The notes under the pieces: model-generated
Database searches by the model: none
Seen by the model: only the letters and a program-made list of their open reading frames with translations
What the model was told of the DNA's origin: nothing
Shown: in pieces, positions 26,303-41,085 of the stretch
Layout: every line of letters starts with the position of its first letter
How positions within the stretch are numbered: the stretch's first letter is position 1
Made by a program: the position numbers and the translations under genes
Source: Rubrobacteraceae bacterium
GTDB lineage: Bacteria > Actinomycetota > Rubrobacteria > Rubrobacterales > Rubrobacteraceae
NCBI GenBank assembly: GCA_050331175.1
Contig: JBHJHC010000021.1
Coordinates: 7,206-71,205 of the forward strand
Length of the DNA: 64,000 nucleotides
Direction of reading: 5' to 3'

Positions 26303-26518
26303 CTAACCCTGAATATTGGTCTGGGTCCAGCGGGTGTGTTCGCCCAGGCCCTCGACTTCCGGAAACTCCTCGCCCCGGGCGAGTTGGACCCGGACCGGGG
26401 GCTGCATGGTCCCCCGGTCGCAGATGTAGGTACCGGAGTTCGGCGCTTCGTCTCCCGGTTTGTAGATCATGCCGTAGGGCCGGTAGCGGGCGAGTATCTC
26501 TTCGACGTTTTCGCTCAA
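26303..26518 (-). CDS. Small conserved-looking protein, possibly YjzC-like
   Basis: YKPGDEAPNSGTYICDRG...VQLARGEEFPE...RW resembles the YjzC-like small-protein pattern (from memory). The TTG start overlaps the serA stop (TTGA). An ATG 16 codons downstream is an alternative start. Confidence 0.35.
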   Translation of the reverse strand: MSENVEEILARYRPYGMIYKPGDEAPNSGTYICDRGTMQPPVRVQLARGEEFPEVEGLGEHTRWTQTNIQG

Positions 26519-28107
26519 GGCATCTCCTCCAGGGTAACGGCGCGGGCGTCGATGAAACCGGGGAGGCCCAACAGCCGGTCTATAACTTCTTGCGTGACGG
26601 GCTCATCCACGGTAACGGCCATCGCGGCCCGGGATCCGGGCTCTCCGCGGCCCACGGCCATGTTGCCGATATTTATACCGTATTCTCCCAGAGTGGTTCC
26701 GACTTTTCCGATCATACCGGGCACGTCTTCGTTTCGGACGAAGAGCATTTGCCTTTCGGGCGTCACGTCCATATCGAAGCCCATCGCCCCGATAAGCCGG
26801 GGCTGGTACCGGGGCCCGTAGAGCGTGCCGCTAACCACGCTCTCTCCTTCCCCGCTTTCCAGGCTCAGCACTACCAGGTTTGTAAAGTCCGAGCTCTCCG
26901 AGGTCTTCGCCGTTTCGACCCTCATGCCCCGGTCCCGGGCGAGCGCCGGGGTGTTGACGAAGTTGAGCGGCTCGTGAACCATCGGGGACAGGAGACCCAT
27001 GAGGGCCGAGACGTCCAGCAGCCGGGTGTCGAAGCCGGCGATCTCACCGTGGTACTCGATGCGCAGGTGGTTGCCCGGGTTGTCGGTGAGCTGGTAGAGC
27101 AGGTTCCCGAGCGCGTGGCACAACCCCGAGAACCGGGACACGAACTCGGCCCCCTCGCCCATAGGGACCGGCGCGTTTATGGCGTGTATCGGCACCGCGC
27201 CCCGTAACACCGTGGCCACCTGCTCCGCGGCCGTGACCCCCGCCCGGTCCTGCGCCTCGGCCGTGCTCGCCCCCAGATGTGGCGTGACCACGACGTTCGG
27301 CAGGCCGAATATCGGGGAGTCGGTGACCGGCTCCTCGGCGTAAACGTCGAGGGCTGCGCCGGCGATCCGGCCTTCCTTGAGCGCGACGTAGAGGTCGGTC
27401 TCGTCCACGATGCCGCCCCGGGCGACGTTTACGAGGTACGCGGTAGACTTCATCTTCTCTAGCGCCTCGGTCCCGATCATACCGGCCGTCTGCGGCGTGC
27501 GCGGGACGTGCAGCGAGATGAAGTCCGCGTTCTCCAATACCTCGTCCACGTCTTCGGCCTTCTCGACGTTCATGGAGCGAATTCGATCTTCGGCGACGTA
27601 GGGATCGTAGGCGATAACCCGCATTCCCATACCTAATGCCCCGCGGGCGACGATCGCGCCGACGTGCCCCAGGCCGATGAGGCCGAGCGTCTTGCCCGAC
27701 ACCTCGACGCCCTTGAAATCGCCCCGCTTCCATTCGCCGCTCCGCAACGACTGGTCCGCCGCCGGTATGTGCCGGGCCGCCGCGAGCATCAACCCTAGGG
27801 TGTGTTCCGCGGCGGCTACCGTGTTGCTCTCGGGGGCGTTGGCGACCAGGATGCCGCGTTTCGTGGCAGCTTCGATGTCTATGTTGTCCACGCCGATACC
27901 GGCCCGCCCGATGGCCTTGAGCCTGGTCGCGGCCTCTATAACCTCGCCGGTAACCTTGGTGGCGCTGCGGATTATCAGGCCGTCGTAGTCTTTGATCTTC
28001 TCTAGAAGCTCTTCCGGCGAGAGCCCGAGCAGCACATCTACCTCGAAATCCTGCTCCAGAAACTCTACGCCGCGATCAGCCAACTTCTCGCTTACGAGAA
28101 TTTTCAC
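26515..28107 (-). CDS. serA: D-3-phosphoglycerate dehydrogenase (long form with ASB/ACT domains)
   Basis: VKILVSEKL..., the NAD site GLIGLGHVGAIVA, and the catalytic RGGIVDE...HLGAST. The GTG at 28107 overlaps the upstream stop (GTGA). The 616-aa ORF in the track is an artefactual N-terminal extension. Confidence 0.9.
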   Translation of the reverse strand: MKILVSEKLADRGVEFLEQDFEVDVLLGLSPEELLEKIKDYDGLIIRSATKVTGEVIEAATRLKAIGRAGIGVDNIDIEAATKRGILVANAPESNTVAAAEHTLGLMLAAARHIPAADQSLRSGEWKRGDFKGVEVSGKTLGLIGLGHVGAIVARGALGMGMRVIAYDPYVAEDRIRSMNVEKAEDVDEVLENADFISLHVPRTPQTAGMIGTEALEKMKSTAYLVNVARGGIVDETDLYVALKEGRIAGAALDVYAEEPVTDSPIFGLPNVVVTPHLGASTAEAQDRAGVTAAEQVATVLRGAVPIHAINAPVPMGEGAEFVSRFSGLCHALGNLLYQLTDNPGNHLRIEYHGEIAGFDTRLLDVSALMGLLSPMVHEPLNFVNTPALARDRGMRVETAKTSESSDFTNLVVLSLESGEGESVVSGTLYGPRYQPRLIGAMGFDMDVTPERQMLFVRNEDVPGMIGKVGTTLGEYGINIGNMAVGRGEPGSRAAMAVTVDEPVTQEVIDRLLGLPGFIDARAVTLEEMP

Positions 28108-29261
28108 GCTACCACACCACTCTTGGCGAAGACCTTCTGGGCAGCCCCGACACCCTGGCCAAGCTCGACCGGGTGATCCAGGGCCTCCAACGCCAGCTCC
28201 GCGGCGGCGACGGTGGCGATGATGTCGTAGGCGTCGAAGTATCCGCAATGTCCCATGCGCCAGATCCTGCCGGCCATCTCTCCCTGGCCGCCGGTGACCT
28301 GTATCCCGTGCTCCCGGAACATGCGGCGAACCAGTTCTTTGCCGTCCACGCCGTCCGGCACCCACGAAGCGGTGACCGCCGCGTTGAGATCCTCGTCCGG
28401 CCCAAACAGCCGGAGCCCCATGCCTTTTACGCCTTCCCGGGCCGCCCGCCCGAGCAAGACGTGGCGCTCGAAAACGTTCTCGACGCCCTCATCCAGTATC
28501 TGCCGCAGCGCCAGGTCTAGCTGGACGATGAGGCTGACCGCGGGGGTCCACGCCGTCTGAGGCGGATTCTTCTCGAAGGCTTTCCTCGCCGCCGTCCAGT
28601 CGAAGTAGAAGCGCGGCATCCGGCTCTCCTCGTGCGCCTTCCACGCCCGCTCGCTGATGCTCGCGAAACCCAGTCCCGGCGGGATCATCAAGGCCTTCTG
28701 GCTTCCCGCCACCACCACGTCCACACCCCAATCGTCGGTCCGCAGCTCGCAGGCCCCGAGCCCGCTTACCGCGTCTACGATGGACACCACGTTCTCGGTG
28801 GCCTTCGCGAAGCCCTCGATGTCGTTGACCGTTCCGGTCGAAGTCTCGGAGAGCACGCACATGGCGCCCTTGATCTCCGGGTCCCCGGCGAGCTTCTCGG
28901 CTATCTCCTCGTTGTCGGCCTTGACTCCCCAGTCGTACTTGATCTCGGTGACTTCGAGCCCGAATGCCTGGCTCATTTTGACCCATCGATTCCCGAAGTT
29001 GCCGCTGTTCACAACGAGCACCCTGTCTCCCGGCGTGAAAAGGTTCTGGATGGCGCCCTCGAATACACCCGTTCCGCTGGCGGCGTAGGTGAAGACGTCG
29101 TTCTCGGTCAAGAACACTTGTTTGAGACCGTCGTTCACCCGCGAAAATATCTCGCCGAACTCCGGCGTCCGGTGGTGGATAACGGGTAATGCCCCGGCAG
29201 CCGAAACCTCCGGCGGTACGGGGGTCGGGCCGGGCGACATAAGACGGTACTTGTTCATCAT
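28104..29261 (-). CDS. Class V PLP aminotransferase (serine-glyoxylate / phosphoserine aminotransferase-like)
   Basis: MMNKYRLMSPGPTPVPPEV..., and the PLP-lysine block GSQKALMIPPGLGF. It is translationally coupled to serA. The start is at the ATG ATG at 29261; the track ORF to 29630 is over-extended. Confidence 0.8.
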   Translation of the reverse strand: MMNKYRLMSPGPTPVPPEVSAAGALPVIHHRTPEFGEIFSRVNDGLKQVFLTENDVFTYAASGTGVFEGAIQNLFTPGDRVLVVNSGNFGNRWVKMSQAFGLEVTEIKYDWGVKADNEEIAEKLAGDPEIKGAMCVLSETSTGTVNDIEGFAKATENVVSIVDAVSGLGACELRTDDWGVDVVVAGSQKALMIPPGLGFASISERAWKAHEESRMPRFYFDWTAARKAFEKNPPQTAWTPAVSLIVQLDLALRQILDEGVENVFERHVLLGRAAREGVKGMGLRLFGPDEDLNAAVTASWVPDGVDGKELVRRMFREHGIQVTGGQGEMAGRIWRMGHCGYFDAYDIIATVAAAELALEALDHPVELGQGVGAAQKVFAKSGVVA

Positions 29262-29517
29262 GGGCTGGTAGTTCCTCTCGTTTTTGTCGAATAGCCGCTC
29301 TCTGCAACCTTTACAGTCTACCCACAATAGTTCGTATTGCCTACAAATCAGATCTATCTCTAACAAACTATGGCATTCGATTTCGAGACTCCACGGTCCG
29401 ATAGCACCGCTGGTCCCGGCTATGTAGCCTGAGGACCTCCACGATATCCACCAACCCGAATTCAGGCATAATTGGAGGCGTGAGAACAATATACCCGCAA
29501 AGAGAAAGGAAGTGGCG

Positions 29518-30081
29518 ATGAACCAGATGTCTACCCTGCCGACCTTTACCACCAGCTGGTGGGCGATCTCTCTCAGGGGACTGCTCGCCGCGATCTTCGG
29601 GTTCCTCGCCCTCATCTGGCCCGGAATCACGATCCTGGCGCTCGTCGTTCTCTTCGGGGCCTACGCCCTGGTAGACGGCATCTTCGCCATAGTGGCCGCC
29701 GCCCGCGGGGCTGGCAGCCGGTGGTGGCTGGTGCTCGAAGGAGTGGTAGGGGTGCTGGCCGGCATTATCGCCTTTGCCTGGCCGGGTATCACGGCGCTGG
29801 CTTTATTGTACGTGATCGCCTTCTGGGCCATAATCACCGGGGTCCTGAAGGTGATCATGGCGATCTTCTTGAGACGCGAGATAGAGCGGGAATGGCTGAT
29901 GATCGCCAGCGGGGGGCTGTCGGTCATATTCGGTGTGATCCTCGCCGTGTTGCCAGCGGTAGGGCTCTTGTCTCTGGTATGGCTCGTAGGTTTGTACGCT
30001 ATCTTGCTCGGAGTAGCGTTAATGGTGTTTGGTTTCTGGGTGAGAGGCCAGCAGCATTCCGGGCGGAGCCGGGTTAGGTAG
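29518..30081 (+). CDS. HdeD-family (DUF308) acid-resistance membrane protein
   Basis: Repeated WW/GI-rich TM helices: WWAISLRGLLAAIFGFLALIWPGITILALVVLFGAYALVDGIF. The ATG at 29518 has AAGGAAG 5 nt upstream. Confidence 0.75.
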   Translation: MNQMSTLPTFTTSWWAISLRGLLAAIFGFLALIWPGITILALVVLFGAYALVDGIFAIVAAARGAGSRWWLVLEGVVGVLAGIIAFAWPGITALALLYVIAFWAIITGVLKVIMAIFLRREIEREWLMIASGGLSVIFGVILAVLPAVGLLSLVWLVGLYAILLGVALMVFGFWVRGQQHSGRSRVR

Positions 30082-30169
30082 CGGAGGCGGCCGTTGGTTG
30101 TCCAGCCACCCGCTGGACGGTCGAAGGCTACAGCCGGATAAGGCAAGCTCCCTGCGCGAGGCATAGGTT

Positions 30170-31354
30170 ATGACGGACGAAAACCGGGAGGCCGGCGAGC
30201 AGCCCCAAGAAGGCCCGGAGACCAACGGGAATGGGATGGACGGTGAACGGTCCGATCCCCCGGATCGCCCGCCGTCGTGGTGGCGGCAGCTGGCAGAACG
30301 TACGGTAAGCACCACCGACGAGCGCCGGCGGGAGGTCATGGAAGAGCTCCTCCCGGAGGGCGCAGCGTTGAGGAGCTACGTTTTCCGTTTCATCATCCTG
30401 CAATCTCTGGCCGTGCTTATAGCACTCTTCGGGCTGCTCACCGACTCGGCCGCGGTGGTTATCGGGGCGATGCTCGTGGCGCCGCTCATGCGTCCGGTGC
30501 TCGGTATCGCCGCGTCGCTCGTTACGGGCCGTCCGATACGGCGGGGAGCTTCGTATCTGATAGTTCTGGGTGCCAGCGTTGGGTCCGTATTTCTAGCCTG
30601 GGCAGTAACGAAGCTGTTGCCGATCCAGTTCGCCACCTCTCTACCGGGGGAGATACTGGCCCGCACGGGACCGGGGTTGCTGGACCTCGGCATAGCCCTC
30701 GCCGCGGGGGCCGCAGGGGCTTACGCGCTGGTGAGGCGGGAGGTAAGCGACGCTTTGCCCGGCGTGGCCGTGGCCGTGGCGCTGGTGCCGCCGCTCGCTA
30801 CCGTGGGATCTACCTTCGCGCTCGGCAGGCCGGACCTCGCGGCGGGAGCCCTGCTGCTCTATCTCACCAACCTCACGGCCATAGTGCTGGTCGGAGCCGT
30901 CGTGTTCGTCCTCACGGGCTTCGCCCCCAGAAGCCACGTCGTCCGGACGCAGCGTCAGGTCCGGCGCAGGATGATCTACGCCGTTATCCTCGTGGGAGCC
31001 ATCTCGATACCGCTTCTGTTGCACACCATAGTGGAAACGGCCGAGCAATGGGACACCGGACAGGCAACGGAAGAGGTGGATCAGTGGCTCCAGGGTACCA
31101 ACCTCCGCGCCACCCGAATAAACGCCTCTTTCGAGGCTGCCAGGCTTGATGCGTTCTTCGACGGAGAAGACTCTGGGACCGGCGTGGCAAACATCTCGGT
31201 CATCAACCGGGTGGTGGTAGACGTGACCGGACCCGACCCACCACCGCCCGTGGAGAACCTGGCGGCAGCGCTGGCAAAGCGGCATGGAGATAGAGTGAAG
31301 GTCGAGGTCCGTTGGACAAAGAGCCGGGAGATTTCCGCAGAAGCGACCCCTTGA
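30170..31354 (+). CDS. DUF389-family membrane protein
   Basis: LLTDSAAVVIGAMLVAPLMRPVLGIA and ALPGVAVAVALVPPLATVG match the DUF389 hydrophobic repeats. Confidence 0.7.
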   Translation: MTDENREAGEQPQEGPETNGNGMDGERSDPPDRPPSWWRQLAERTVSTTDERRREVMEELLPEGAALRSYVFRFIILQSLAVLIALFGLLTDSAAVVIGAMLVAPLMRPVLGIAASLVTGRPIRRGASYLIVLGASVGSVFLAWAVTKLLPIQFATSLPGEILARTGPGLLDLGIALAAGAAGAYALVRREVSDALPGVAVAVALVPPLATVGSTFALGRPDLAAGALLLYLTNLTAIVLVGAVVFVLTGFAPRSHVVRTQRQVRRRMIYAVILVGAISIPLLLHTIVETAEQWDTGQATEEVDQWLQGTNLRATRINASFEAARLDAFFDGEDSGTGVANISVINRVVVDVTGPDPPPPVENLAAALAKRHGDRVKVEVRWTKSREISAEATP

Positions 31355-31424
31355 CCGGCCCTCCCACCCAAGATGGCGCTGCTCGACGGATGTTACTGAT
31401 TCAGGGCACCGTCATGCCGGAACG

Positions 31425-32636
31425 CTAGCCGAAACCGGCTCCCGCTAGCGCGGGCAGGGCCGAACGCGCGTAGCGGGCGGCATATCCGGCGGTGGAGTCG
31501 TTTGGGATCTCGTACGGGTCCCGGCTGCGGATCTCCGCCGGTTTCGTTCCCGCCCGGATGCGTTCCTCCTGCAAGTCCATGCGGAGAAAGTCTCCATCAC
31601 GCAGGCGGCCCACAATGCCTTTCTTCGCGGCTTCGGGGGCCACCAGAGAGATCCAGCTCCCCTTCGCCTCGTCCGGCGGCAGCCCGTCGGTGAGAACCGG
31701 TGTGCTCTCTGCGAGTTTCGCGCCATCCAGTACGCGGCCGAGCGCGTCAAGCTTCAGCAGCCCCGGCCCGCCCCGGGGTCCGCAGCCGCTCACGACGATC
31801 AGGTCGCCGGGCTCGATCTCTTCGTCCCGGACAGCCTGCACAGCTTCTTCTTCGGAGTAGAAAACCCGGCACTCACCGGCGATCTCCTCAGTCCCCGGTG
31901 GAACCTGGCAGATCGCCTTCGTCCCGGAAGCCTGGCCCTCCACGAACACCAGCCACGACCTTTCCTCCGGGATCGGGGGCGCAGAGGGTAAGGAATTCTT
32001 GATCCAACCCGTAACCGTTGGTACGTCATGCAGGTCCTCTCCCAGGTGAGAAAGCAGTTTTTCCGTTCCCTGTTCCTGAAACCACCCGGAGTGGGGAGGC
32101 GAGATCACCGGGGTCTCGGGGACGAGCACGCGCAGCATCCGGGAGAAACCCGAAACGTCACCTTCGCGGGCTATGGCGGAGAGATGGACTGCGAGCTCCG
32201 GGCCTCCTCCCATCGAAAGCCCGACCCGGAGGGCGTTGGCCAGGGAAAAATTTCCGACCAGTTCACCGAGACGGGGCTCCCCCTTCGCAGAAAGCTCGAC
32301 TATGACCTCCGCAACATCCTCTCTCGCCGGCACGACCCCGAGGGCCGTAAATGCGCCGCCGTAAGCGTCGCTCCTGCGGGCCACTACCGAAGGAAGGTCC
32401 AACCTCAAAGCCGCCAGGAACAACCCGACCAGTTCCTCGGGACGCCCGGCATCGATCAGCAGGGCGTCGAGCTCCGCGGAGCCCAGGTAGACTTCTACGG
32501 TATCCGAGATCCATTCGCGGGTGAGCATCACACCGCCGGCGGGGCACACCTCGGGCAAGCCGATCTCCACGGGCTCGCTACCGGCATCCCGGACCCTGTC
32601 CGCGTGGTTCGCGGTACAAACACCGATACGGGTCAC
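31425..32636 (-). CDS. Short, degenerate IlvD/Edd-dehydratase-fold protein (probable pseudoenzyme)
   Basis: 403 aa. It is collinear with IlvD blocks (LAALRLDLPSVV ~ LMAALRLNIPVIFV; GLSMGGGPELAVHL ~ AMGGSTNTVLHL; VVSGCGPRGGPGLLKL ~ VIRYEGPKGGPGMQEM; LVAPEAAKKGIVGRLRDGD ~ HVSPEAASGGSIGLIEDGD). It lacks the CDK, CPTCGSC and DGRFSG motifs. The GTG start is 3 nt after the gatB stop. Confidence 0.55.
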   Translation of the reverse strand: MTRIGVCTANHADRVRDAGSEPVEIGLPEVCPAGGVMLTREWISDTVEVYLGSAELDALLIDAGRPEELVGLFLAALRLDLPSVVARRSDAYGGAFTALGVVPAREDVAEVIVELSAKGEPRLGELVGNFSLANALRVGLSMGGGPELAVHLSAIAREGDVSGFSRMLRVLVPETPVISPPHSGWFQEQGTEKLLSHLGEDLHDVPTVTGWIKNSLPSAPPIPEERSWLVFVEGQASGTKAICQVPPGTEEIAGECRVFYSEEEAVQAVRDEEIEPGDLIVVSGCGPRGGPGLLKLDALGRVLDGAKLAESTPVLTDGLPPDEAKGSWISLVAPEAAKKGIVGRLRDGDFLRMDLQEERIRAGTKPAEIRSRDPYEIPNDSTAGYAARYARSALPALAGAGFG

Positions 32637-32639
32637 GGG

Positions 32640-34103
32640 TTAAGAGCCCAGTTTCTCCAGGATGAGCTGGCGCGCCCGGCCGCCATCGGCCCCGCCGCGG
32701 GTCGCCTTCATAACCTGGCCGATGAGGAAGCCGATCACCTTCTGGTCCCCACCCCGGACACGGTCCGCCTCCTCGGGGTTGGCCACGAGAACCTGATCCA
32801 CGACCGCCGATAGCTCGTCGCCTTTCATCTGCGCCAACCCTTCGCGCTCGACCACGGCGGCCGGAGACTCACCGCTGGTAAAGATCCGGTCCAGAACATC
32901 CTTCGCGGTAGCCCGCGAGATGGTCCCGTCGCCAACGAGCCCGAGCAACTCCGCCATCTGTTCCGGGGCGACCCGGGACTCGGAGACCTCCATTCCGGCC
33001 TCGTTTAGCCGGGCCTGGAGCTCGACCGTAATCCAGTTGGCGGCCTGCTTCGAGTCCACCCCGGAACCGCCGGCAACCGCTTCGTAGTAAGCGGCGAGGT
33101 CGCGATCCGCCGTCAGCACGCCGGCGTCGTACCCGGAGAGGCCGTACTGCTCCACGAAGCGGGCCCGCATCTCCTCCGGCAACTCGGGCAAACGGTTCTT
33201 AATCTCGCGAACCCACGCTTCGGTAAGCTCCAGCGGCAGCAGGTCCGGCTCCGGGAAGTACCGGTAGTCGTGGGCGTACTCCTTGCTGCGAAGCTCGTGA
33301 ACCTCGTCGGTCTCCGGGTCATAGTGGAGCGTGGTCTGCGTTACGCGCCCGCCGCCTTCCAGAATGTCCCGCTGGCGCTCCAGCTCCCTCGTGAGCCCCC
33401 GCTCGACAAAACGGAAAGAGTTCATGTTCTTCAACTCGGTCTTGGTGCCGAAAGAGCCGTCGGGGTTGCGGAGGCTGACGTTGGCGTCGCAGCGGAGCTG
33501 GCCCTTCTCCATGTCCGCCTCGGAAACGCCGATGGCCCGCAGGATCTCTTTGAGGTGGTTGGCCGTGGCGCGGGCGGCCTCCGGCGAGGTAATGTCCGGC
33601 TCGGTGACGATCTCCATCAGGGGCGTACCGCCCCGGTTATAGTCCACGAGCGAGCCGACCGAACCGTGCATCCGGCCCGATTCTCCGACGTGGACGTTCT
33701 TGGCGGCGTCCTCTTCGAGGTGCAGCCGGGTAATGCCGACCCGGACAGTCTCATCCCCGAGCGGCACGTCCAGGTGGCCGCCGGTACAAATCGGCAGGTC
33801 GAACTGGGAGATCTGGTACCCCTTCGGGAGGTCGGGGTAGAAGTAGTTCTTGCGCGCGAAAACCGCCCGGGGAGCTACGTCGCAGTTGAGCGCGAGACCC
33901 GCCATGACGCCGAGCTCCACGGCCTTCTCGTTGGCGACCGGCAGCGCGCCGGGGTGTCCGAGGCAGACCGGGCAAGTGTGCGTATTCGGCTCCTCACCAT
34001 AGGCTACCCGGCAACCACAGAACATCTTGGTCGTCGTCGCCAGGTGGACGTGAAACTCCAGCCCGATAACCGCCCGGTAGGTTCGTTTCTCTTGAACTTC
34101 CAA
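32640..34103 (-). CDS. gatB: Asp-tRNA(Asn)/Glu-tRNA(Gln) amidotransferase subunit B
   Basis: YRAVIGLEFHVHLATTTKMFCGC...NYFYPDLPKGYQISQ, plus a C-terminal YqeY-like tail. I prefer the TTG at 34103 (GAGGTG upstream). The ATG at 34145 lies inside a promoter-like palindrome and the track start at 34367 is over-extended. Confidence 0.9.
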   Translation of the reverse strand: MEVQEKRTYRAVIGLEFHVHLATTTKMFCGCRVAYGEEPNTHTCPVCLGHPGALPVANEKAVELGVMAGLALNCDVAPRAVFARKNYFYPDLPKGYQISQFDLPICTGGHLDVPLGDETVRVGITRLHLEEDAAKNVHVGESGRMHGSVGSLVDYNRGGTPLMEIVTEPDITSPEAARATANHLKEILRAIGVSEADMEKGQLRCDANVSLRNPDGSFGTKTELKNMNSFRFVERGLTRELERQRDILEGGGRVTQTTLHYDPETDEVHELRSKEYAHDYRYFPEPDLLPLELTEAWVREIKNRLPELPEEMRARFVEQYGLSGYDAGVLTADRDLAAYYEAVAGGSGVDSKQAANWITVELQARLNEAGMEVSESRVAPEQMAELLGLVGDGTISRATAKDVLDRIFTSGESPAAVVEREGLAQMKGDELSAVVDQVLVANPEEADRVRGGDQKVIGFLIGQVMKATRGGADGGRARQLILEKLGS

Positions 34104-34142
34104 GTAAGTGCACCTCGCGTTTTCACCTGCTGTGACAGAGTT

Positions 34143-34173
34143 CATTCTAGCATTGTGGGTGAATGCTAGAATG
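34143..34173. promoter_or_regulatory. Perfect 12-bp inverted repeat carrying two back-to-back extended -10-like elements (TGCTAGAAT on each strand)
   Basis: CATTCTAGCATT-gtgggtg-AATGCTAGAATG. It lies in the divergent gatB / FHA-GGDEF intergenic region. Confidence 0.4.
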
Positions 34174-34238
34174 GGTCTCATCATCCTGGAAAGGTAGCAA
34201 AGGAGGAGGACATCTCGGAGGGTGGGCAGCCGCACCTG

Positions 34239-35048
34239 GTGGTGCTGCAAGGGCCGAGCTTCGGTGACATCTACTATCTTGAGGGCGAGCCGCTCGTTCT
34301 CGGCAGCAATCCTTTCCAGGCAGACATCGTGGTTCGGGACGTGGAGGTCGAACCGGAACACGTTCAACTCTACAGTGGCGGACCAGGCTACGTCGTTAAG
34401 GATCTCAGTACCGGGAAGCCAACTTTCATAAACGGAGATCGTGTGGCAGAGCCTCTCCCCGTGCGCTCTGGAGACCGTATTTTCGTCGGAAATAGCATTC
34501 TGGAGTTTGTGGACCAGGACCCCCTAAAAGAGCAGTTCCACAAGAAAATACAACGGATGATCAACCAGGACTACCTGACAGGCCTGCTCGCCAAAAACCG
34601 CTTTGATGAGAGGTTCGAGCAAACCCTGGAAATCTGTCAGGAGAACGAGAGTATATTGAGCGTCTTGATGGCCGACATAGACAACCTCAAGAAGATAAAC
34701 GACTCCTACGGACACCTGCTGGGCGAGTTCGTGGTGGGCGAGATCGGGCGCATCATCCACGATTGTCTGGAATCCGAAGAGTTCTTCGCGAGCCGCTTTG
34801 GAGGCGATGAGTACCAGGCGATCCTGCCCGGCCTTACCAAAGACGAAGCCACCGAAATCGCCGAGGAGATCCGCCACAGCATCGAAGAGTTTACGTTCGA
34901 GCACGAAGGCGCTTACGCGAACCCGACTCTTTCCCTGGGCGTCGCCTCCTATCCCGAGGACGGGGACAACCGGGACAAGCTCACCCATTCCGCCGACAAA
35001 GCTCTCTACCGGGCGAAGCACGCCGGCGGCAACTCGGTTTCTCAATAG
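34239..35048 (+). CDS. FHA-domain diguanylate cyclase (GGDEF domain with a GGDEY variant)
   Basis: The N-terminus is an FHA domain (LVLGSNP.ADIVV.D..V...H..L....GYVVKDLSTGKPTFING). The C-terminus is a GGDEF domain (DYLTGL..R, ADIDNLKKINDSYGH, RFGGDEYQAIL). The exact start is uncertain: a strong AGGAGGAGG lies at 34201-34209. Confidence 0.8.
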   Translation: MVLQGPSFGDIYYLEGEPLVLGSNPFQADIVVRDVEVEPEHVQLYSGGPGYVVKDLSTGKPTFINGDRVAEPLPVRSGDRIFVGNSILEFVDQDPLKEQFHKKIQRMINQDYLTGLLAKNRFDERFEQTLEICQENESILSVLMADIDNLKKINDSYGHLLGEFVVGEIGRIIHDCLESEEFFASRFGGDEYQAILPGLTKDEATEIAEEIRHSIEEFTFEHEGAYANPTLSLGVASYPEDGDNRDKLTHSADKALYRAKHAGGNSVSQ

Positions 35049-35091
35049 CCCGCCGCGCCAGGATGAGGTCCGGCCGGTAGAACGCCGGCGG

Positions 35092-36561
35092 TTATCCGGA
35101 GTCCGGTCCAGTTGCCGCAGACCATATCGGGCGCATCTCCCACGAGTCAAGGGATTTCAGCTTCGCGCCCCCGCCGGACGGCAGCAGACCCAGGCCGAGG
35201 CTGCCGGGCAGGGAGGGGTAGATCCTGCCCGAGATGCACGCCCGGTCGTTGGCGAACACCTCGATCACGGAGCGGTCGAGGAAGATATGAAGCCTCAGCA
35301 GCTCGCCGGGATGGAGCTCTAGTTCTCCCCACCGGAGATCCCGCCGGACGTTGGGAGCCAGGCTGGACCGCGTGGTATCCAGGATCAAACGCCCGCGCCC
35401 GCTGTCGTACGCCACGATCGTCTCCTCTTCACCCCCCGGCGAAAGCCGCACTTTCAGGCCGAGGCTGGCAGCATCCCCCACCTCGAACACCGCCAGGATC
35501 TCCAAACTGTCTCCCCGAACGCCTTCGAGCATCCCGGAGGATGCGGGGGTGAGATCCAGATCCCCGAACCGGTGATGTTTGCCCCGGAGCCCTTGGAGCT
35601 CCGGGACGGGCTCTAAGCCGAGCTTACCGTCGGATCTCATAGACAATACCCGGGGCAAGGACAATACCCCAGCCCATCCGGCTTCCAGGGCCGCCCGCGC
35701 GTCCCGGCCTTCCCACAACCAGCCCCACATGATCCGGCGTCCCTCTTTATCCAGGAGCGTTTGCGGGGCGTAGAAGTATCCGCCAGGATCGATAATCCTC
35801 AGCATCTCCGGGATGAACTTGTGGTCGGCATACGCCCCGGCGAAGTACACGGTGTAGTGGGGGTCTTCACCGTCGAATACCGAGGCTAGGAGCACGTGTT
35901 TGTCTTCCAGCGCGAAGAAATCCGGACACTCCCACATCGAACCGGTCCAGGCCGGTTCGGTGCGGGTTTCGTCTCCAACGTATAGAGGGTGCACGTATTC
36001 CCAACGGATGAGATCCCCGGACCTGTAGAGCAAGGCGGCACCGCCTACGCCCTCGAGGCCGGATCCGACGATCTGGTACCAGGTATCGCCCTCCTTCCAC
36101 ACGCAATGGTCCCGGAAGCCGGTGGTGTTCAGTTCTTCGGGAGGCGAAGGGATTACCGGGTTTCCACCGTACTTCTTCCAGGCAACCAGCTCGTCGTCGA
36201 GGCTCGTCGCCAAACATGGCAGCTGGGCCTCGCCTCGCACGCCGGTGTAGATCAGGGTCGGCGTGCCACGGTCGTCAACCGCGCAACCGGAGTAGCAGCC
36301 GTCTTCGTCCGGCCCCCCGGGTGTCGGCGTCAGCGCAACCGGTAAGTCCTCCCAGTGCACCAGGTCCTCGCTCGCGGCGTGGCCCCACCGGATAGCGTCG
36401 TGGACCGGACTGTTAGGGTTGTACTGGTAGAAAAGATGGTACCGTCCCCGCCACTCCATAAGGCCGTTAGGGTCGTTGATCCAATTCGCCGGCGGCAAGA
36501 AGTGGTAAAGAGGACGATGCGGATCATTCGCCCAACTCCGCCGGTACATTATCTCACCCAT
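35092..36561 (-). CDS. GH32 beta-fructofuranosidase (sucrose-6-phosphate hydrolase/invertase/levanase family)
   Basis: Contains WINDPNG, FRD and WECPDFF catalytic blocks. I prefer the ATG at 36561 (GGGAGG 8 nt upstream); the track start is 36621. Confidence 0.85.
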   Translation of the reverse strand: MGEIMYRRSWANDPHRPLYHFLPPANWINDPNGLMEWRGRYHLFYQYNPNSPVHDAIRWGHAASEDLVHWEDLPVALTPTPGGPDEDGCYSGCAVDDRGTPTLIYTGVRGEAQLPCLATSLDDELVAWKKYGGNPVIPSPPEELNTTGFRDHCVWKEGDTWYQIVGSGLEGVGGAALLYRSGDLIRWEYVHPLYVGDETRTEPAWTGSMWECPDFFALEDKHVLLASVFDGEDPHYTVYFAGAYADHKFIPEMLRIIDPGGYFYAPQTLLDKEGRRIMWGWLWEGRDARAALEAGWAGVLSLPRVLSMRSDGKLGLEPVPELQGLRGKHHRFGDLDLTPASSGMLEGVRGDSLEILAVFEVGDAASLGLKVRLSPGGEEETIVAYDSGRGRLILDTTRSSLAPNVRRDLRWGELELHPGELLRLHIFLDRSVIEVFANDRACISGRIYPSLPGSLGLGLLPSGGGAKLKSLDSWEMRPIWSAATGPDSG

Positions 36562-36661
36562 CCTTACATCCTCCCACTTCTCCGCTATCATCCCCCGCCC
36601 AGGAAACTGCGGCAGACCCAAGTGTCCTAGAAGCCTGTGGAAGGGTAGCGTATCCTGTCTC

Positions 36662-38245
36662 TTACCACCACCAGATTACGACGGCGGCCGTTACCAGAAA
36701 GAGCACGATGGAAAGGTATCGGTAGTTGTAGTACCAGGGTATCTCTTCGAGTTCCCGAGATTCCTCCCGCCACAGTTCACGATGCCACGTCAACCCTTCA
36801 ATCTTCTCGTCCGGTGGCGGGTCCGTAGCCAGACTCACGCCGGCCAGGATCAGGAAACTAACGACCAACGAGATGCCGGAAGCATAGAGAAATTGGATCT
36901 TGAAGACCCCGAGTATCTCGTTCAGGACGAACCCAAACACGCCTAGAGGAACGCCTATGACCAGCGTGGCGAAACCGCCGTGCCGATTAGCCCGAGCCCA
37001 GAAAATACCGCCGAGAAACACTACTACTACCGGGGGTGTGATATACGCGAGCACTGACTGCAAGTATTGCCAGAGCGTGGGAAAGCGGGTTATTTGTGGC
37101 GCCCATATTATCGCGACGATCATGGCGACCACCGTGGCTATACGCCCGATGTACACCAGGGAGGCCTGACTGGTGTCGGGCCGGATCGTCTTGACGAAGT
37201 CCATTGTGACCATTGTGGCAGCCGAGTTGAGTACCGAGTCGACGCTGGAAGTGATGGCCGCAACCAGCGCCGCCAGAATTACGCCCCGCAGACCGACTGG
37301 CAAAAGGTCGAACGCCAGCGTAGGCCACACGAGGTCGGGGTTCTGAAGGTTTGGATAGAGTGCGAGAGCCATAGTTCCCGGGAGAACCATTATGAACAGC
37401 GGCGGTATCTTGAGAAATCCTGCGAACAACGAGCCCCACCTGCCATGGTTGAGGCTTCTCGCCCCCAACGTACGCTGCACGATGAGTTGGTTCGAGGTCC
37501 AGAAATATATCCCTATTATGAGTACACCGGTGAATAAGCCGGGCCAGGGTAATGCTTCGTCTCCGATAGGTTGGACGATGTGCAAAGCGCCTTCGGGAGC
37601 GGCCTCTTCAACCGCGCCCCAAGAAGGTATCGCCCGGTAAGTCAGAATAGAGATTACCATAGCCCCGATGATCAGTACGACGGCTTGTATTGAGTCGCTG
37701 ATCACCACGGCCCCGAGTCCGCCAAATACGGTATATATTCCCGCGAGCACGGCCAGCGCGAGGATATCTATCCACAGGGGGATCTCCGGGTACAGCGTCC
37801 GGATCACGATACCCCCCGCATATAGAGCAGCGGCCATGTCTATGAACATGTTCGCAAACAGGTTGAAACCGGAGAACGCCAATCGCGAGCGCACATCGTA
37901 GCGTTTTTCGAGGAACTCGGGCATCGTAAAGACCCTGGAGCGCAGGTAGAATGGCAGGATAAAGAAGATGAAAATTATCAGTATTATGGCCGCCATCCAC
38001 TCGTAGGAATAGACGGAGATACCAGAATTGTATCCGGCGCCCGCAAGCCCTACAAAGGAGCTACCGCTCATGTTGGTAGCAAAGAGCGAGAACCCGATCA
38101 GGGGCCACACAAAGTTGCGGCCGCCGAGGAAGTAGTCGTCCGAATCCTCGTTCTTACCGGCTAGTAACAAAGGTATTATTCTACTCGCGATAAGATACAC
38201 TACAAGAACAGTAATATCTATGGCGCCAACGCTTAGATCAGGCAC
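36662..38245 (-). CDS. Sodium:solute symporter (SSS family), copy 2
   Basis: 527 aa and collinear with 20024-21619. The GTG start has GGGAGG 5 nt upstream and an in-frame stop 15 nt upstream. Confidence 0.85.
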   Translation of the reverse strand: MPDLSVGAIDITVLVVYLIASRIIPLLLAGKNEDSDDYFLGGRNFVWPLIGFSLFATNMSGSSFVGLAGAGYNSGISVYSYEWMAAIILIIFIFFILPFYLRSRVFTMPEFLEKRYDVRSRLAFSGFNLFANMFIDMAAALYAGGIVIRTLYPEIPLWIDILALAVLAGIYTVFGGLGAVVISDSIQAVVLIIGAMVISILTYRAIPSWGAVEEAAPEGALHIVQPIGDEALPWPGLFTGVLIIGIYFWTSNQLIVQRTLGARSLNHGRWGSLFAGFLKIPPLFIMVLPGTMALALYPNLQNPDLVWPTLAFDLLPVGLRGVILAALVAAITSSVDSVLNSAATMVTMDFVKTIRPDTSQASLVYIGRIATVVAMIVAIIWAPQITRFPTLWQYLQSVLAYITPPVVVVFLGGIFWARANRHGGFATLVIGVPLGVFGFVLNEILGVFKIQFLYASGISLVVSFLILAGVSLATDPPPDEKIEGLTWHRELWREESRELEEIPWYYNYRYLSIVLFLVTAAVVIWWW

Positions 38246-38247
38246 AG

Positions 38248-38340
38248 TTACCTCCCTCTAGAACGGCTCTTCGCTACAAATCCCGGCCGCGTAAGCCATC
38301 GCTCGCCACGATAGCCAACCGCGTACCGCACGGGGTCCAT
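38248..38340 (-). other. Candidate 30-codon upstream ORF in the symporter leader
   Basis: GGAGGTG-ATG GAC CCC ... AGG TAA, with the stop 2 nt before the symporter GTG. The SD spacing is short (2 nt), so translation is doubtful. Confidence 0.2.
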
Positions 38341-38449
38341 CACCTCCGAAAAACCCAGGTATAGCCTCCGAAACCAGCCACTATCTGCCATGCCTCAGAC
38401 CGTCCACACTTGTTCTTCCAAGCACTTTTCCATCCCGCTGTTTCATTTA

Positions 38450-38463
38450 CTAACACGTTTTAG
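38450..38463. promoter_or_regulatory. LacI-type operator candidate 1 (CTAACACGTTTTAG; flanks extend to TTTACTAA-N6-TTAGTAAA)
   Basis: A 14-bp near-palindrome with a central CG. It lies 8-21 nt downstream of the predicted TSS of the symporter/GH32 promoter. Confidence 0.45.
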
Positions 38464-38477
38464 TAAATGGTTTTAGC

Positions 38478-38506
38478 ACTGTAACAGCCTTGTTGATTGC
38501 TGTCAA
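38478..38506 (-). promoter_or_regulatory. Candidate promoter TTGACA-17-TACAGT for the symporter-GH32 operon
   Basis: Minus-strand hexamers at 38506-38501 and 38483-38478 with an exact 17-nt spacer. Confidence 0.45.
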
Positions 38507-38580
38507 CGTTATGTGCTTGTACGCCTCGACGAGGTTTATTCGGCAGCCTGGGCGTAGACACCGGCTTGGTGTAAGATTTC

Positions 38581-38594
38581 CTAATACGTTTTAG
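38581..38594. promoter_or_regulatory. LacI-type operator candidate 2 (CTAATACGTTTTAG)
   Basis: Same 14-mer as site 1 except for one base. It ends 27 nt upstream of the LacI-family gene start. Confidence 0.45.
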
Positions 38595-38621
38595 TTCTAC
38601 AAACATGGAAGCCAGGAGGCT

Positions 38622-39638: not shown

Positions 39639-39642
39639 GGGA

Positions 39643-41085
39643 TCACGGCTTCATCGTGAACTCGAAGTCCGCGACCTCCTCTACGCCGCGGGCGGCGCGC
39701 AGGAGCAGGGGTTCGGTGAAGTGGTCGCTCATGAGCTGGACGCCCACGGGCAGGCCTTGCGAAAGGCCACCGGGGACGCTGATCGCCGGTATTCCGGCCA
39801 GGTTGGCCGGGATGGAGCAGATGTCCTGGTAGTACATGGCGAGCGGGTCGTCGACCTTGTCCCCGATCTCGAACGCCACCGTGGGCGAAATTGGGGAGAG
39901 CAGCACGTCGTAGCGGCTAAAGGCCGAACGGAAGTCCTCGACGATCCGGGTGCGGACCTTCTGAGCCTGGGCGTAGTAGGCCTCGTAGTAACCGCTGGAG
40001 AGGGCGTAGGTGCCGAGCATGATCCTGCGTTTCGCCTCGTCCCCAAAACCCTCTTCCCGCGTCTTTCGGTACATCTCGTGTACCCCGTCCGCCGGAACCC
40101 GCAGCCCGTAGCGCACGCCGTCGAAGCGGGCCAGGTTGGAGGAAACTTCTGCCGGGGCGATGATGTAGTAGGCTGGCAGCGCGTACTCCTGGTGTGGAAG
40201 CTGTGCCTCTCCTACCTCGGCCCCCGCACGCTCCAGTTCCCGGGCGACCTTCTCGACCACCGCGCGTACCCCCGGCTCGATCCCCTCTTTCATCAGCTCG
40301 CCAACCACCCCCACGCGGAGGCCGGCGACGCCGTCTTCGAGCCCTGACAGATAGTCCGGCACCTCGACGTTGGCGCTGGTGGAGTCCTGGGGATCATGGC
40401 CGGCGATCGCCTGCAATAACAGCGCCGCGTCGCGCACGTCGCGGGTCATGGGGCCGACCTGATCGAGGGAAGACGCGAAGGCGATCAGGCCGTGCCGCGA
40501 AACCCGTCCGTAGGTTGGCTTGAGCCCGACGATACCGCACAACGCCGCCGGCTGGCGCACCGAACCGCCGGTGTCCGTGCCCAGCGACCACCAGCCCTCC
40601 CCGGCGGCCACCGCGGCCGCCGAACCGCCGGAAGAGCCACCCGGCACCCGATCCAGATCCCAGGGGTTCCTCGCCGGGCCGTAAGCCGAGTTCTCCGTCG
40701 AGGAACCCATCGCGAACTCGTCGCAGTTGGCTTTGCCAACCATGATGATGTCTTCCCCGAAGTTCTGGAGCGCCGAAGCGTCGTAGAGTGGCTCGAACCC
40801 TTCCAGAATCTTTGAGCCGCACGTAGTCCGCACGCCGCGGGTAGAAAGAACGTCCTTTACGGCCAGCGGTACGCACTCCCAGAGCTTCACACCTCCGTTT
40901 CGCAGCCGGGCATCTACCTTCTCCGCCCGCCGGACGGCGATCTCGGGCGTCGTCGTGACGAAGGCGTTGACTTCACTTTCAACCGCTTCGACCCGCTCGT
41001 TGGCGGCCCCGGCGGCCTCGCGGGCGGAGATCTCCCCGGCCTCTATGCGCTGCGCCAGCTCGTAGGCTGTGAGGTCCAGCATCAA
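39643..41085 (-). CDS. gatA: Glu-tRNA(Gln)/Asp-tRNA(Asn) amidotransferase subunit A
   Basis: Contains the amidase signature GGSSGGSAAAVAAG and has full-length GatA similarity. Confidence 0.9.
   Translation of the reverse strand: MMLDLTAYELAQRIEAGEISAREAAGAANERVEAVESEVNAFVTTTPEIAVRRAEKVDARLRNGGVKLWECVPLAVKDVLSTRGVRTTCGSKILEGFEPLYDASALQNFGEDIIMVGKANCDEFAMGSSTENSAYGPARNPWDLDRVPGGSSGGSAAAVAAGEGWWSLGTDTGGSVRQPAALCGIVGLKPTYGRVSRHGLIAFASSLDQVGPMTRDVRDAALLLQAIAGHDPQDSTSANVEVPDYLSGLEDGVAGLRVGVVGELMKEGIEPGVRAVVEKVARELERAGAEVGEAQLPHQEYALPAYYIIAPAEVSSNLARFDGVRYGLRVPADGVHEMYRKTREEGFGDEAKRRIMLGTYALSSGYYEAYYAQAQKVRTRIVEDFRSAFSRYDVLLSPISPTVAFEIGDKVDDPLAMYYQDICSIPANLAGIPAISVPGGLSQGLPVGVQLMSDHFTEPLLLRAARGVEEVADFEFTMKP

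What the first reader, a model, noticed from the sequence alone, without database searches (positions are those of the whole stretch)
31425..32639. Degenerate IlvD/Edd-fold pseudoenzyme translationally coupled to gatB
Seen in the sequence: a 403-aa ORF is collinear with dihydroxy-acid/6-phosphogluconate dehydratases over several blocks but is about 170-200 aa shorter. Where IlvD has NCDK it has DAGRPEE. The CPTCGSCSGMFTANS segment is absent. TDGRFSGG is replaced by TDGLPPDE. Its GTG start lies 3 nt after the gatB stop codon.

Established knowledge: those motifs supply Fe-S cluster cysteines and the catalytic serine in this family.

Inference: the protein keeps the fold but not the dehydratase chemistry. 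Its tight coupling to the tRNA-dependent amidotransferase B subunit hints at a new, non-catalytic or different role.
Basis: partly seen in the sequence, partly recalled or inferred. Interest (0 to 1): 0.6.

Follow-up and report, generated by a model that had tools for sequence, protein, structure and literature searches.

The report
Dead IlvD paralogue coupled to gatB
Nearly every genome searched in the Rubrobacter class has, directly after the tRNA-amidotransferase gene gatB, a shortened copy of the enzyme dihydroxy-acid dehydratase that keeps its shape but has lost almost every residue its chemistry needs, so it probably has a different, still untested job.

Summary
Its GTG start is 3 nt after the gatB stop.

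It is a true IlvD/Edd homologue. hhalign gives probability 100% and E 6.5e-51. The AF2 model has pLDDT 86, and Foldseek gives TM 0.78-0.80 to DHAD structures.

In 145 distinct family members the segments carrying Cys1 and Cys3 are deleted. The C, D and K of CDK are replaced. The Arg of TDGR is lost, and the Ser base is Pro in 138 of 145. Only one Mg ligand (Glu) is kept.

The genome has a normal 560-aa IlvD elsewhere.

The short form was found in 96 of 104 Rubrobacteria genomes (17 genera) and in none of 369 other Actinomycetota genomes searched. It evolves under purifying selection (dN/dS about 0.31). gatB lies directly upstream wherever this could be checked, usually with a start codon 0-8 nt after the gatB stop. 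In some genera the order is gatA-gatB-X.

Best reading: a conserved pseudo-dehydratase made together with GatB. Its partner or activity is unknown. An AF2 fusion model and a rate-covariation test gave no support for GatB contact. Similar degenerate IlvD paralogues occur in Elusimicrobiota ilv operons. I found no paper describing this family. Interest is moderate.

The parts
31425..32636 (-). X: short (403 aa) catalytically degenerate IlvD/Edd paralogue. GTG start at 32636-32634; stop at 31427-31425.
   Evidence: ORF and translation. Pfam and PDB hits. hhalign. AF2 and Foldseek. Residue census.
32637..32639 (-). 3-nt spacer (CCC) between the gatB stop TAA and the GTG of X. Both genes are in the same frame, and there is no room for a promoter.
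   Evidence: Sequence. No promoter-like site in 31000-34500. A start codon 0-8 nt after the gatB stop is typical of the family.
32640..34103 (-). gatB (487 aa), the B subunit of the tRNA-dependent amidotransferase. It has both the GatB_N and the YqeY tail domains.
   Evidence: Pfam. 76-89% identical GatB lies upstream of X in relatives.
39643..41085 (-). gatA (amidase family). Here it is separated from gatB by a sugar-utilisation/GGDEF insert. In 10 of the 53 distinct relatives' loci with enough upstream sequence it is contiguous with gatB-X.
   Evidence: Pfam. Synteny.
26515..29630 (-). Class-V aminotransferase (serC-like) and serA. In most relatives they lie downstream of X on the same strand. 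In this genome a convergent DUF389 gene (30170-31354, +) sits in between.
   Evidence: Pfam. Synteny.

Best explanation
X is a class-specific, shortened paralogue of dihydroxy-acid dehydratase. It keeps the two-domain IlvD/Edd fold but cannot perform the family's Fe-S/Mg/Ser dehydration. The BCAA pathway is served by a normal IlvD encoded elsewhere in the genome.

X is the last gene of the gatB operon (ancestrally perhaps gatC-gatA-gatB-X). Its start codon sits a few nucleotides after the gatB stop, so ribosomes finishing GatB most likely re-initiate on X, and the two proteins are made together.

Shown: homology, fold, loss of the catalytic residues, purifying selection, class-wide presence, and invariant position behind gatB.

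Inferred: X acts as a non-dehydratase binding or accessory protein. It would use the remodelled but still strongly conserved former active-site cleft and a conserved C-terminal tail.

My odds:
- No canonical dehydratase activity: about 0.9.
- Functional protein rather than relic: about 0.95.
- Partner is GatB/GatCAB: about 0.3.
For: - Homology and fold.
- Catalytic residues in 145 distinct sequences. The Cys1 and Cys3 segments are deleted in all. Cys2 becomes E/S/R/K/D. The Mg Asp becomes Pro (126). The carbamylated Lys becomes E/A. The TDGR Arg becomes Leu (135). The Ser base becomes Pro (138). Only the Mg Glu (144/145) and T-D-G are kept. Residue roles come from PMC5770437.
- A canonical IlvD with PCNF, GCDK, the Cys3 loop and TDGRFSG is present in the same genome and in the 7 other Rubrobacteria genomes whose canonical copy was fetched.
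- Selection: median dN/dS 0.31, against 0.17 for gatB, over 641 pairs. The ORF is intact in 17 genera.
- Distribution: short-family matches in 96 of 104 Rubrobacteria genomes; the 8 without one are 51-92% complete. None in 369 other Actinomycetota genomes at E<=1e-25. Only Rubrobacter/Rubrobacteraceae contigs were found in the 185,579-species collection.
- Coupling: gatB is directly upstream on the same strand in 114/114 loci. Of the 76 distinct loci with at least 300 nt upstream, 74 have it within 250 nt. The commonest stop-to-start distances are 3, 4, 7, 5 and 6 nt. The same holds for the most divergent member, P0130.
- Operon order: gatA-gatB-X is contiguous in 10 distinct loci.
- The genome has no AsnRS or GlnRS above cut-off, so GatCAB should be indispensable.
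- Columns that correspond to the canonical active-site motifs are more conserved within the short family than the rest of the protein (0.79 vs 0.63, permutation p<1e-4). The last 20 residues are also highly conserved.
Against: - There is no direct evidence of any interaction or activity.
- AF2 of the GatB-X read-through fusion with 18 paired rows gave pTM 0.47, so no confident joint arrangement.
- Rate covariation of X with GatB is no higher than with GatA, SerA or the aminotransferase (partial r 0.10).
- The whole block gatA-gatB-X-aminotransferase-serA is syntenic in the class, so adjacency may partly be history.
- X is acidic (pI about 4.85), which argues against direct tRNA binding.
- The motif columns are also structural core, so their conservation need not mean a functional pocket.
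- Three nearly invariant cysteines new to the family (C243, C256, C285) leave room for a new metal site or a new catalytic activity.
Confidence: 0.6

Rival explanations
1. X is a new enzyme, or a protein with a relocated metal site. After losing the Fe-S/Mg site, the cleft was rebuilt with new invariant residues (W42, R137, S237, C243, C256, C285, W328, R352, Y385, R388). It now catalyses a different reaction or binds a different cofactor.
For: Family-specific residues are invariant or nearly so in 145 sequences, although overall identity is only about 50%. Several of them lie inside the former active-site motifs: REW, LANALR, GCGPRGGPG, TDGLPP and W-x-S-L-x-x-PEA. Three cysteines were gained in a protein that lost three cysteine ligands.
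Against: No known catalytic motif is recognisable. C285 is Tyr in 11 of 145 sequences. dN/dS of 0.31 is rather relaxed for a core enzyme.
Confidence: 0.22
2. X works with the canonical IlvD, or more broadly in BCAA/serine metabolism, for example as an inactive partner in a heterodimer or as a metabolite sensor. Its position behind gatB would then be only inherited gene order.
For: IlvD/Edd enzymes are obligate dimers whose active site is completed by the partner chain (PMC5770437). Full-length degenerate IlvD paralogues in Elusimicrobiota sit inside the operon cimA/leuA-ilvD*-ilvB-ilvN-ilvC, while a canonical IlvD is encoded elsewhere in the same genome. These proteins group with X in unconstrained trees. 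A serC-like aminotransferase and serA follow X on the same strand in most relatives. The highest partial rate covariation is with the aminotransferase, though it is weak (0.26).
Against: X is never next to the canonical ilvD or other ilv genes in Rubrobacteria. The stop-to-start distance to gatB stays at 0-8 nt even where the N-terminus of X varies in length, which looks like selection for the coupling itself. X lacks the N-terminal helices that canonical subunits lend to their partner's active site. The grouping with other degenerate proteins may be long-branch attraction: the stem is 1.2-1.9 substitutions per site, and the AU tests do not reject a sister relation to the Rubrobacteria IlvD (p 0.75 and 0.32).
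Confidence: 0.13
3. X is a decaying relic of a duplicated ilvD with no function. It is kept open only by chance or by polar effects on neighbouring genes.
For: Massive loss of catalytic elements. It evolves faster than gatB (dN 0.41 vs 0.14).
Against: The ORFs are intact and about 400 aa long in 17 genera of a deep-branching class. dN/dS is about 0.3, not about 1. 32 columns are invariant in 77 sequences. The fold prediction is confident. The only apparent disruptions (R. marinus and one long-read MAG contig) lie in loci where the neighbouring genes also show frameshifts (gatB in the MAG contig; serA and the aminotransferase in R. marinus), which points to assembly errors.
Confidence: 0.03
4. 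The database name is right: X is a functional dihydroxy-acid dehydratase.
For: Sources call it 'dihydroxy-acid dehydratase'. It passes the Pfam gathering scores.
Against: It scores 105 bits against a cut-off of 618 for the ilvD equivalog. All cluster ligands, most Mg ligands and the base are missing. A normal IlvD exists in the same genomes.
Confidence: 0.02

Closest known systems
Canonical dihydroxy-acid dehydratase IlvD (e.g. M. tuberculosis, PDB 6OVT; Synechocystis, PDB 6NTE; the genome's own 560-aa IlvD on another contig)
   Same: Homologous over both domains: hhalign 100%, 26% identity, 406 columns. Same fold, TMq 0.78-0.80. Shared motifs are S/T-R-E, (E/A)NA, V/L-H-L, ARE, GP(K/R)GGPG, T-D-G, PEA and D-G-D.
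   Different: 157 aa shorter. X lacks the N-terminal helices, the Cys1 loop, the loop after SDG, and the ~54-residue Cys3/Thr helix-loop. CDK becomes R/E-P-E, and TDGRFSG becomes TDGLPP. X sits behind gatB, whereas only 1 of 35 canonical actinobacterial ilvD loci had even a GatB-like hit in its flanks (opposite strand, 35% identity).
Uncharacterised full-length degenerate IlvD paralogues of Elusimicrobiota (P0146/P0413 group, auto-named dihydroxy-acid dehydratase)
   Same: They also lack Cys1, the CDK cysteine and aspartate, and the CxGxC loop. They also have Pro in place of the Ser base (TDGR-L/F-P) and GP(K/R)GGPGL. They also coexist with a canonical IlvD. They group with X in unconstrained trees.
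   Different: They are full length (546-563 aa) and keep the TDGR arginine. They lie inside the ilv operon, not next to gatB. Whether they share an origin with X is unresolved (AU p 0.32-0.75 for the alternative).
IRP2 / apo-IRP1 (aconitase-fold proteins that act without the Fe-S cluster). This is an analogy from my own knowledge, not tested here.
   Same: An Fe-S dehydratase fold reused for a non-catalytic role after loss or absence of the cluster.
   Different: Unrelated fold family. The IRPs bind RNA, whereas X is acidic (pI 4.85) and has no known ligand.
AstD (PDB 9IX7), a DHAD homologue from Aspergillus terreus
   Same: A second, divergent DHAD-family copy alongside the housekeeping enzyme. 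It is among the top structural hits.
   Different: AstD is described as a self-resistance enzyme that still works as a DHAD (my own knowledge). X has lost the catalytic residues.

Membership tests
IlvD/Edd superfamily (homology and fold) | Significant match to Pfam ILVD_EDD_N (PF00920) and ILV_EDD_C (PF24877) above the gathering scores | tested here: met
   89.8 bits (cut-off 27.7) and 40.0 bits (cut-off 27). hhalign 100%, E 6.5e-51.
IlvD/Edd superfamily (homology and fold) | Two-domain fold: N-terminal alpha/beta domain plus C-terminal mixed beta-sheet domain | tested here: met
   AF2 pLDDT 86, pTM 0.85. Foldseek TMq 0.74-0.80 to 25 DHAD/sugar-acid/6PG dehydratase chains.
Functional IlvD/Edd dehydratase | PROSITE motif 1, C-D-K-x(2)-P-[GA] (cluster Cys, Mg Asp, carbamylated Lys; PMC5770437) | tested here: not met
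   Window: G-R-P-E-E-L-V. Family: Cys becomes E/S/R/K/D, Asp becomes P (126/145), Lys becomes E/A.
Functional IlvD/Edd dehydratase | PROSITE motif 2, T-D-[GA]-R-x-S-[GA] with the serine base | tested here: not met
   TDGLPPD. Arg becomes Leu in 135/145 and Ser becomes Pro in 138/145.
Functional IlvD/Edd dehydratase | Three cysteine ligands of the [2Fe-2S]/[4Fe-4S] cluster | tested here: not met
   The Cys1 and Cys3 segments are deleted in 145/145. Cys2 is replaced in all.
Functional IlvD/Edd dehydratase | Four Mg2+ ligands (Asp/Glu of SDG, Asp and Lys of CDK, Glu of PEA) | tested here: not met
   Only the PEA glutamate is kept (144/145). The other three are replaced.
Functional IlvD/Edd dehydratase | Score above the NCBIfam ilvD equivalog cut-off | tested here: not met
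   TIGR00110: 104.8 bits against 618.15. NF002068: 132.5 against 644.
Functional IlvD/Edd dehydratase | Dehydratase activity on 2,3-dihydroxy acids or sugar acids | not testable with these tools
   Needs an enzyme assay or complementation of an ilvD deletion.
GatCAB-associated (accessory) protein | Conserved co-transcription and translational coupling with a gat gene | tested here: met
   gatB directly upstream in 114/114 loci. Start codon 0-8 nt after the gatB stop in most. gatA-gatB-X contiguous in 10 distinct loci.
GatCAB-associated (accessory) protein | Physical interaction with GatB/GatCAB | tested here: inconclusive
   AF2 of the read-through fusion: pTM 0.47. Rate covariation: partial r 0.10. 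Neither test is decisive.
Pseudoenzyme | Homologue of an enzyme that lacks the catalytic residues yet is kept by selection | tested here: met
   Residue census. dN/dS 0.31. Found in 96 of 104 genomes of the class. Absence of every activity cannot be shown in silico.

The most novel reading that the evidence does not exclude
A dead Fe-S dehydratase has been recruited as a fourth, lineage-specific component of the tRNA-dependent amidotransferase (GatCAB/transamidosome) in Rubrobacteria. It would be made in step with GatB by termination-reinitiation, and might tune Asn-tRNA/Gln-tRNA formation, and hence translational fidelity, in response to a metabolite bound in its remodelled cleft.
Probability: 0.25. 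Interest if true: 0.8.

Novelty: new variant of a known kind. Interest (0 to 1): 0.52.

Why it matters
First, annotation. Members of this family are named 'dihydroxy-acid dehydratase' in public databases. That name would mislead metabolic reconstructions of Rubrobacteria, and similar names would mislead reconstructions of Elusimicrobiota.

Second, X is a clean, ancient example of a bacterial pseudoenzyme derived from an Fe-S enzyme. It is a core gene of a whole class and is tied by translational coupling to a gene that should be essential, since no AsnRS or GlnRS was found.

If X binds GatCAB, it would be the first accessory factor of this kind for bacterial indirect aminoacylation. Actinobacterial GatCAB levels are known to set mistranslation rates (my own knowledge).

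If instead X, or the related Elusimicrobiota proteins in ilv operons, has a new activity or regulates DHAD, that bears on the oxygen-sensitive DHAD step that limits engineered isobutanol pathways.

Tried and rejected
1. GatB-X gene fusion as a Rosetta-stone link. An apparent 912-aa open frame in one relative is only an out-of-frame open stretch in GC-rich DNA; gatB and X are separate genes there.
2. AF2 of a GatB-X read-through fusion (both genes share a frame in 22 loci) with 18 naturally paired rows gave pTM 0.47 and pLDDT 72.5, which is uninformative.
3. Mirror-tree rate covariation over 22 loci showed no specific signal for GatB.
4. X as an in-situ remnant of an ancestral gatB-adjacent ilvD. 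Of 35 canonical actinobacterial ilvD loci, only one had a GatB-like hit in its 1.5-kb flanks (opposite strand, 35% identity), and there are no ilv genes in the window.
5. Origin. Two unconstrained trees put X with other degenerate DHAD-like proteins. AU tests do not reject X as sister to the Rubrobacteria IlvD (p 0.75 and 0.32), and in one data set the constrained tree had the higher likelihood. The origin is unresolved.
6. A short form outside Rubrobacteria. The one 'Acidobacteriota' hit is a mis-binned Rubrobacteraceae contig, and a Chitinophagaceae hit is an ordinary IlvD with a frameshift.
7. Pseudogenisation in R. marinus. The aminotransferase and serA genes at the same locus are frameshifted too, so this is probably assembly error.
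8. RNA elements: Rfam found none in 31000-34600. No sigma-70-like promoter was found.
9. Nucleic-acid binding is unlikely, because the pI is 4.85.
10. Literature. Four searches found no paper on this family or on Fe-S-less IlvD homologues.
12. Spatial clustering of the three new cysteines could not be measured, because the model coordinates are not exposed.
Full report
OBSERVATION. The window has a 403-codon ORF at 31425..32636 on the minus strand, with a GTG start. The gene upstream on the same strand is gatB (32640..34103; GatB_N 2.3e-111, GatB_Yqey 2.3e-42). The junction reads TAA-CCC-GTG. The start is therefore 3 nt after the gatB stop, in the same frame, with no space for a promoter; the consensus scan found none. 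Relatives begin with M-(P/S)-R-I-G-V at the same place, which supports this start.

HOMOLOGY AND FOLD. I call the protein X.
- X matches Pfam ILV_EDD_C (2e-25) and ILVD_EDD_N (3.5e-10), both above their gathering scores.
- It matches solved DHADs, with 6ovt at 2.3e-22.
- As a 77-sequence profile it matches a profile of 34 full-length IlvD-family proteins with probability 100%, E 6.5e-51, over 406 columns that span both domains.
- It falls far below the NCBIfam ilvD equivalog cut-off: 105 bits against 618.
- An AF2 model built from the family alignment is confident (pLDDT 86.1, pTM 0.85).
- The 25 best Foldseek PDB hits are all IlvD/Edd dehydratases, with TMq 0.74-0.80 and E down to 2.8e-25. 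The next hits are chance-level.

WHAT IS MISSING. PMC5770437 gives the defining elements of the enzyme family:
- three cluster cysteines;
- Mg ligands: the Asp/Glu of the SDG region, the Asp and the carbamylated Lys of C-D-K, and the Glu of P-E-A;
- the Arg and the Ser base of T-D-G-R-x-S.

I aligned X with the genome's own 560-aa IlvD, which has all of these elements. X lacks the N-terminal ~37 residues, the loop with Cys1, a 10-residue loop after SDG, and a ~54-residue segment with Cys3 and the conserved Thr. C-D-K is R-P-E, and TDGRFSG is TDGLPPD.

A census over 145 distinct family sequences shows this is true of the whole family:
- The Cys1 and Cys3 segments are deleted in 145/145.
- Cys2 is E/S/R/K/D.
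- The Mg Asp is Pro in 126.
- The Lys is E or A.
- The Arg is Leu in 135.
- The Ser is Pro in 138.
- Only the P-E-A Glu (144/145) and T-D-G survive.

So the canonical chemistry is gone.

IS IT ALIVE?
- A search of 1.84 billion cluster representatives finds a tight family: 18 hits at E<=1e-30, all short-family proteins or fragments, followed by a gap down to ordinary IlvD-family proteins at about 1e-28.
- In the GTDB class that contains the window's genome (one family, 17 genera), 96 of 104 genomes have a short-family match. The 8 without one are 51-92% complete.
- None of 369 other Actinomycetota genomes searched has a match at E<=1e-25.
- A scan of one genome for each of 185,579 species returned only Rubrobacter/Rubrobacteraceae contigs, including R. 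taiwanensis and R. marinus. It also returned one mis-binned contig and one ordinary IlvD.
- The most divergent members, P0131 and P0130, are also Rubrobacter-type.
- Median pairwise dN/dS is 0.31 for X and 0.17 for gatB in the same loci (641 pairs).
- 32 columns are invariant in 77 sequences.
- All 8 Rubrobacteria genomes checked, including the window's own, also have a canonical IlvD.

X is therefore a maintained core gene of the class, not a relic.

CONTEXT.
- gatB lies directly upstream on the same strand in 30/30 loci and in 114/114 loci when all fetched loci are counted.
- Of the 76 distinct loci with at least 300 nt of upstream sequence, 74 have gatB within 250 nt.
- The commonest distances from the gatB stop to the X start are 3, 4, 7, 5 and 6 nt. 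Where the N-terminus of X is longer, an in-frame start at +4 is still present. This suggests that the coupling itself is conserved.
- The same arrangement holds for the most divergent member, with an 11-nt gap.
- Upstream of gatB there is either gatA directly (10 distinct loci) or a divergent FHA-GGDEF gene (32 loci).
- Downstream, a serC-like class-V aminotransferase and serA usually follow on the same strand.
- In this window the order is: gatA, a sugar-utilisation module, the GGDEF gene, gatB, X, a convergent DUF389 gene, a DUF308 gene, the aminotransferase, serA.
- The canonical ilvD lies on another contig between a transporter gene and universal-stress-protein genes.
- The genome has no AsnRS or GlnRS above cut-off. 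GatCAB is therefore presumably required for both Asn-tRNA and Gln-tRNA, as is usual in Actinomycetota.

ORIGIN.
- X sequences form one clade (SH-aLRT support 100) on a very long stem of 1.2-1.9 substitutions per site.
- Unconstrained trees place X among other catalytically degenerate DHAD-like proteins rather than with the Rubrobacteria IlvD.
- AU tests do not reject a sister relation to the resident IlvD (p 0.75, where the constrained tree actually had the higher likelihood, and p 0.32).

Long-branch attraction is likely, and I leave the origin open.

WHAT IT MAY DO. Three points bear on this.
- The columns equivalent to the canonical active-site motifs remain more conserved within the short family than the rest of the protein (0.79 vs 0.63, p<1e-4), even though the residues have changed.
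- Family-specific invariant residues (W42, R137, S237, C243, C256, C285, W328, R352, Y385, R388) lie partly inside those motifs.
- The C-terminal ~20 residues, ending in G-A-G-F-G, are highly conserved although modelled with low confidence. In canonical enzymes the C-terminus reaches into the partner's active site.

This points to a used surface or pocket. The protein is acidic (pI about 4.85), so direct tRNA binding is unlikely.

I tested the GatB-partner idea in two ways, and neither was informative:
- AF2 on the natural read-through fusion (same frame in 22 loci; 18 paired rows) gave pTM 0.47.
- Distance-matrix covariation over 22 loci gave a partial r of 0.10 for GatB, no better than the controls.

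I therefore commit only to this: X is a conserved non-dehydratase IlvD-fold protein made together with GatB. The most likely role is a binding or accessory protein. I put GatCAB as its partner at about 0.3, a new catalytic or metal site at about 0.2, and a link to IlvD, BCAA or serine metabolism at about 0.13.

WIDER PATTERN. This was noticed in passing.
- Many full-length IlvD-family representatives close to X also lack C-D-K, the cluster cysteines and the serine.
- One such group of about 50 clusters comes from Elusimicrobiota. It has V-G-D-(S/A)-x-(K/E)-T-L in place of G-C-D-K and T-D-G-R-(L/F)-P in place of T-D-G-R-F-S.
- In one genome this gene sits between a cimA/leuA-like gene and ilvB-ilvN-ilvC, while a canonical IlvD is encoded elsewhere.

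The pairing of a canonical and a degenerate IlvD therefore recurs in a second phylum. An earlier, unchecked note of this scan (e1-2324962) reports another truncated degenerate IlvD homologue in a different genome.

NOVELTY AND VERDICT. Four literature searches found no description of this family or of Fe-S-less IlvD homologues. Databases name it dihydroxy-acid dehydratase. I class it as a new variant of a known kind: a lineage-specific pseudoenzyme of the IlvD/Edd family in a gat operon. The functional link to GatB remains a hypothesis. Interest is moderate (0.52): the case is solid and clean, but its mechanism is unknown.

Noticed in passing
L164:7001-8683 (GCA_022072025.1, JAJVIP010000005.1) and L166/L167: Elusimicrobiota carry a full-length IlvD paralogue without the cluster cysteines, the CDK Asp or the Ser base (TDGRLPE). 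It lies inside the operon cimA/leuA-ilvD*-ilvB-ilvN-ilvC, while a canonical IlvD (GCDK, TDGRFSG) is encoded elsewhere in the same genome. About 50 clusters of this type exist, all auto-named dihydroxy-acid dehydratase.
   Followed up: partly
Representative proteins P0153, P0155, P0162, P0164, P0187, P0194, P0211, P0219, P0262 and others: Many other full-length IlvD-family proteins from metagenomes lack most catalytic positions. Loss of the Fe-S site appears to be recurrent in this family.
   Followed up: no
window 32640-34103 and the whole genome G000: No AsnRS or GlnRS above the NCBIfam cut-offs in the 92%-complete genome, so GatCAB should serve both Asn-tRNA and Gln-tRNA. An asparagine-synthase-family gene is present (C16).
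   Followed up: partly
L125 (CAVRRE010000006.1, labelled Acidobacteriota MAG): This contig carries gatB, X, aminotransferase and serA at about 80% identity to the window, with frameshifts within gatB and X. It is almost certainly a mis-binned, error-prone long-read Rubrobacteraceae contig.
   Followed up: yes
L118 (Rubrobacter marinus SCSIO 52915, NZ_CP045121.1): X appears split over three frames, but the neighbouring aminotransferase and serA genes are frameshifted too. This suggests indel errors in the assembly rather than pseudogenes.
   Followed up: partly
L163:700-2133 (protein P0130): The most divergent family member (477 aa) has an insertion of about 60 residues, rich in Asp/Glu, in the C-terminal domain. 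It still follows gatB by 11 nt. A MOSC-domain gene separates it from the aminotransferase.
   Followed up: partly
window 31425-31500 (residues ~380-403 of X): The C-terminal tail (G-Y-A-A-R-Y-A-R-S-A ... G-A-G-F-G) is among the most conserved parts of the family, yet it is modelled with pLDDT below 60. It may be an interaction motif.
   Followed up: partly
window 26515-41085 and loci L033-L047: The block gatA-(GGDEF)-gatB-X-(class-V aminotransferase)-serA is syntenic across the class. The window's genus has extra inserts: a GH32/SSS/LacI sugar module between gatA and gatB, and DUF389 and DUF308 genes after X.
   Followed up: yes
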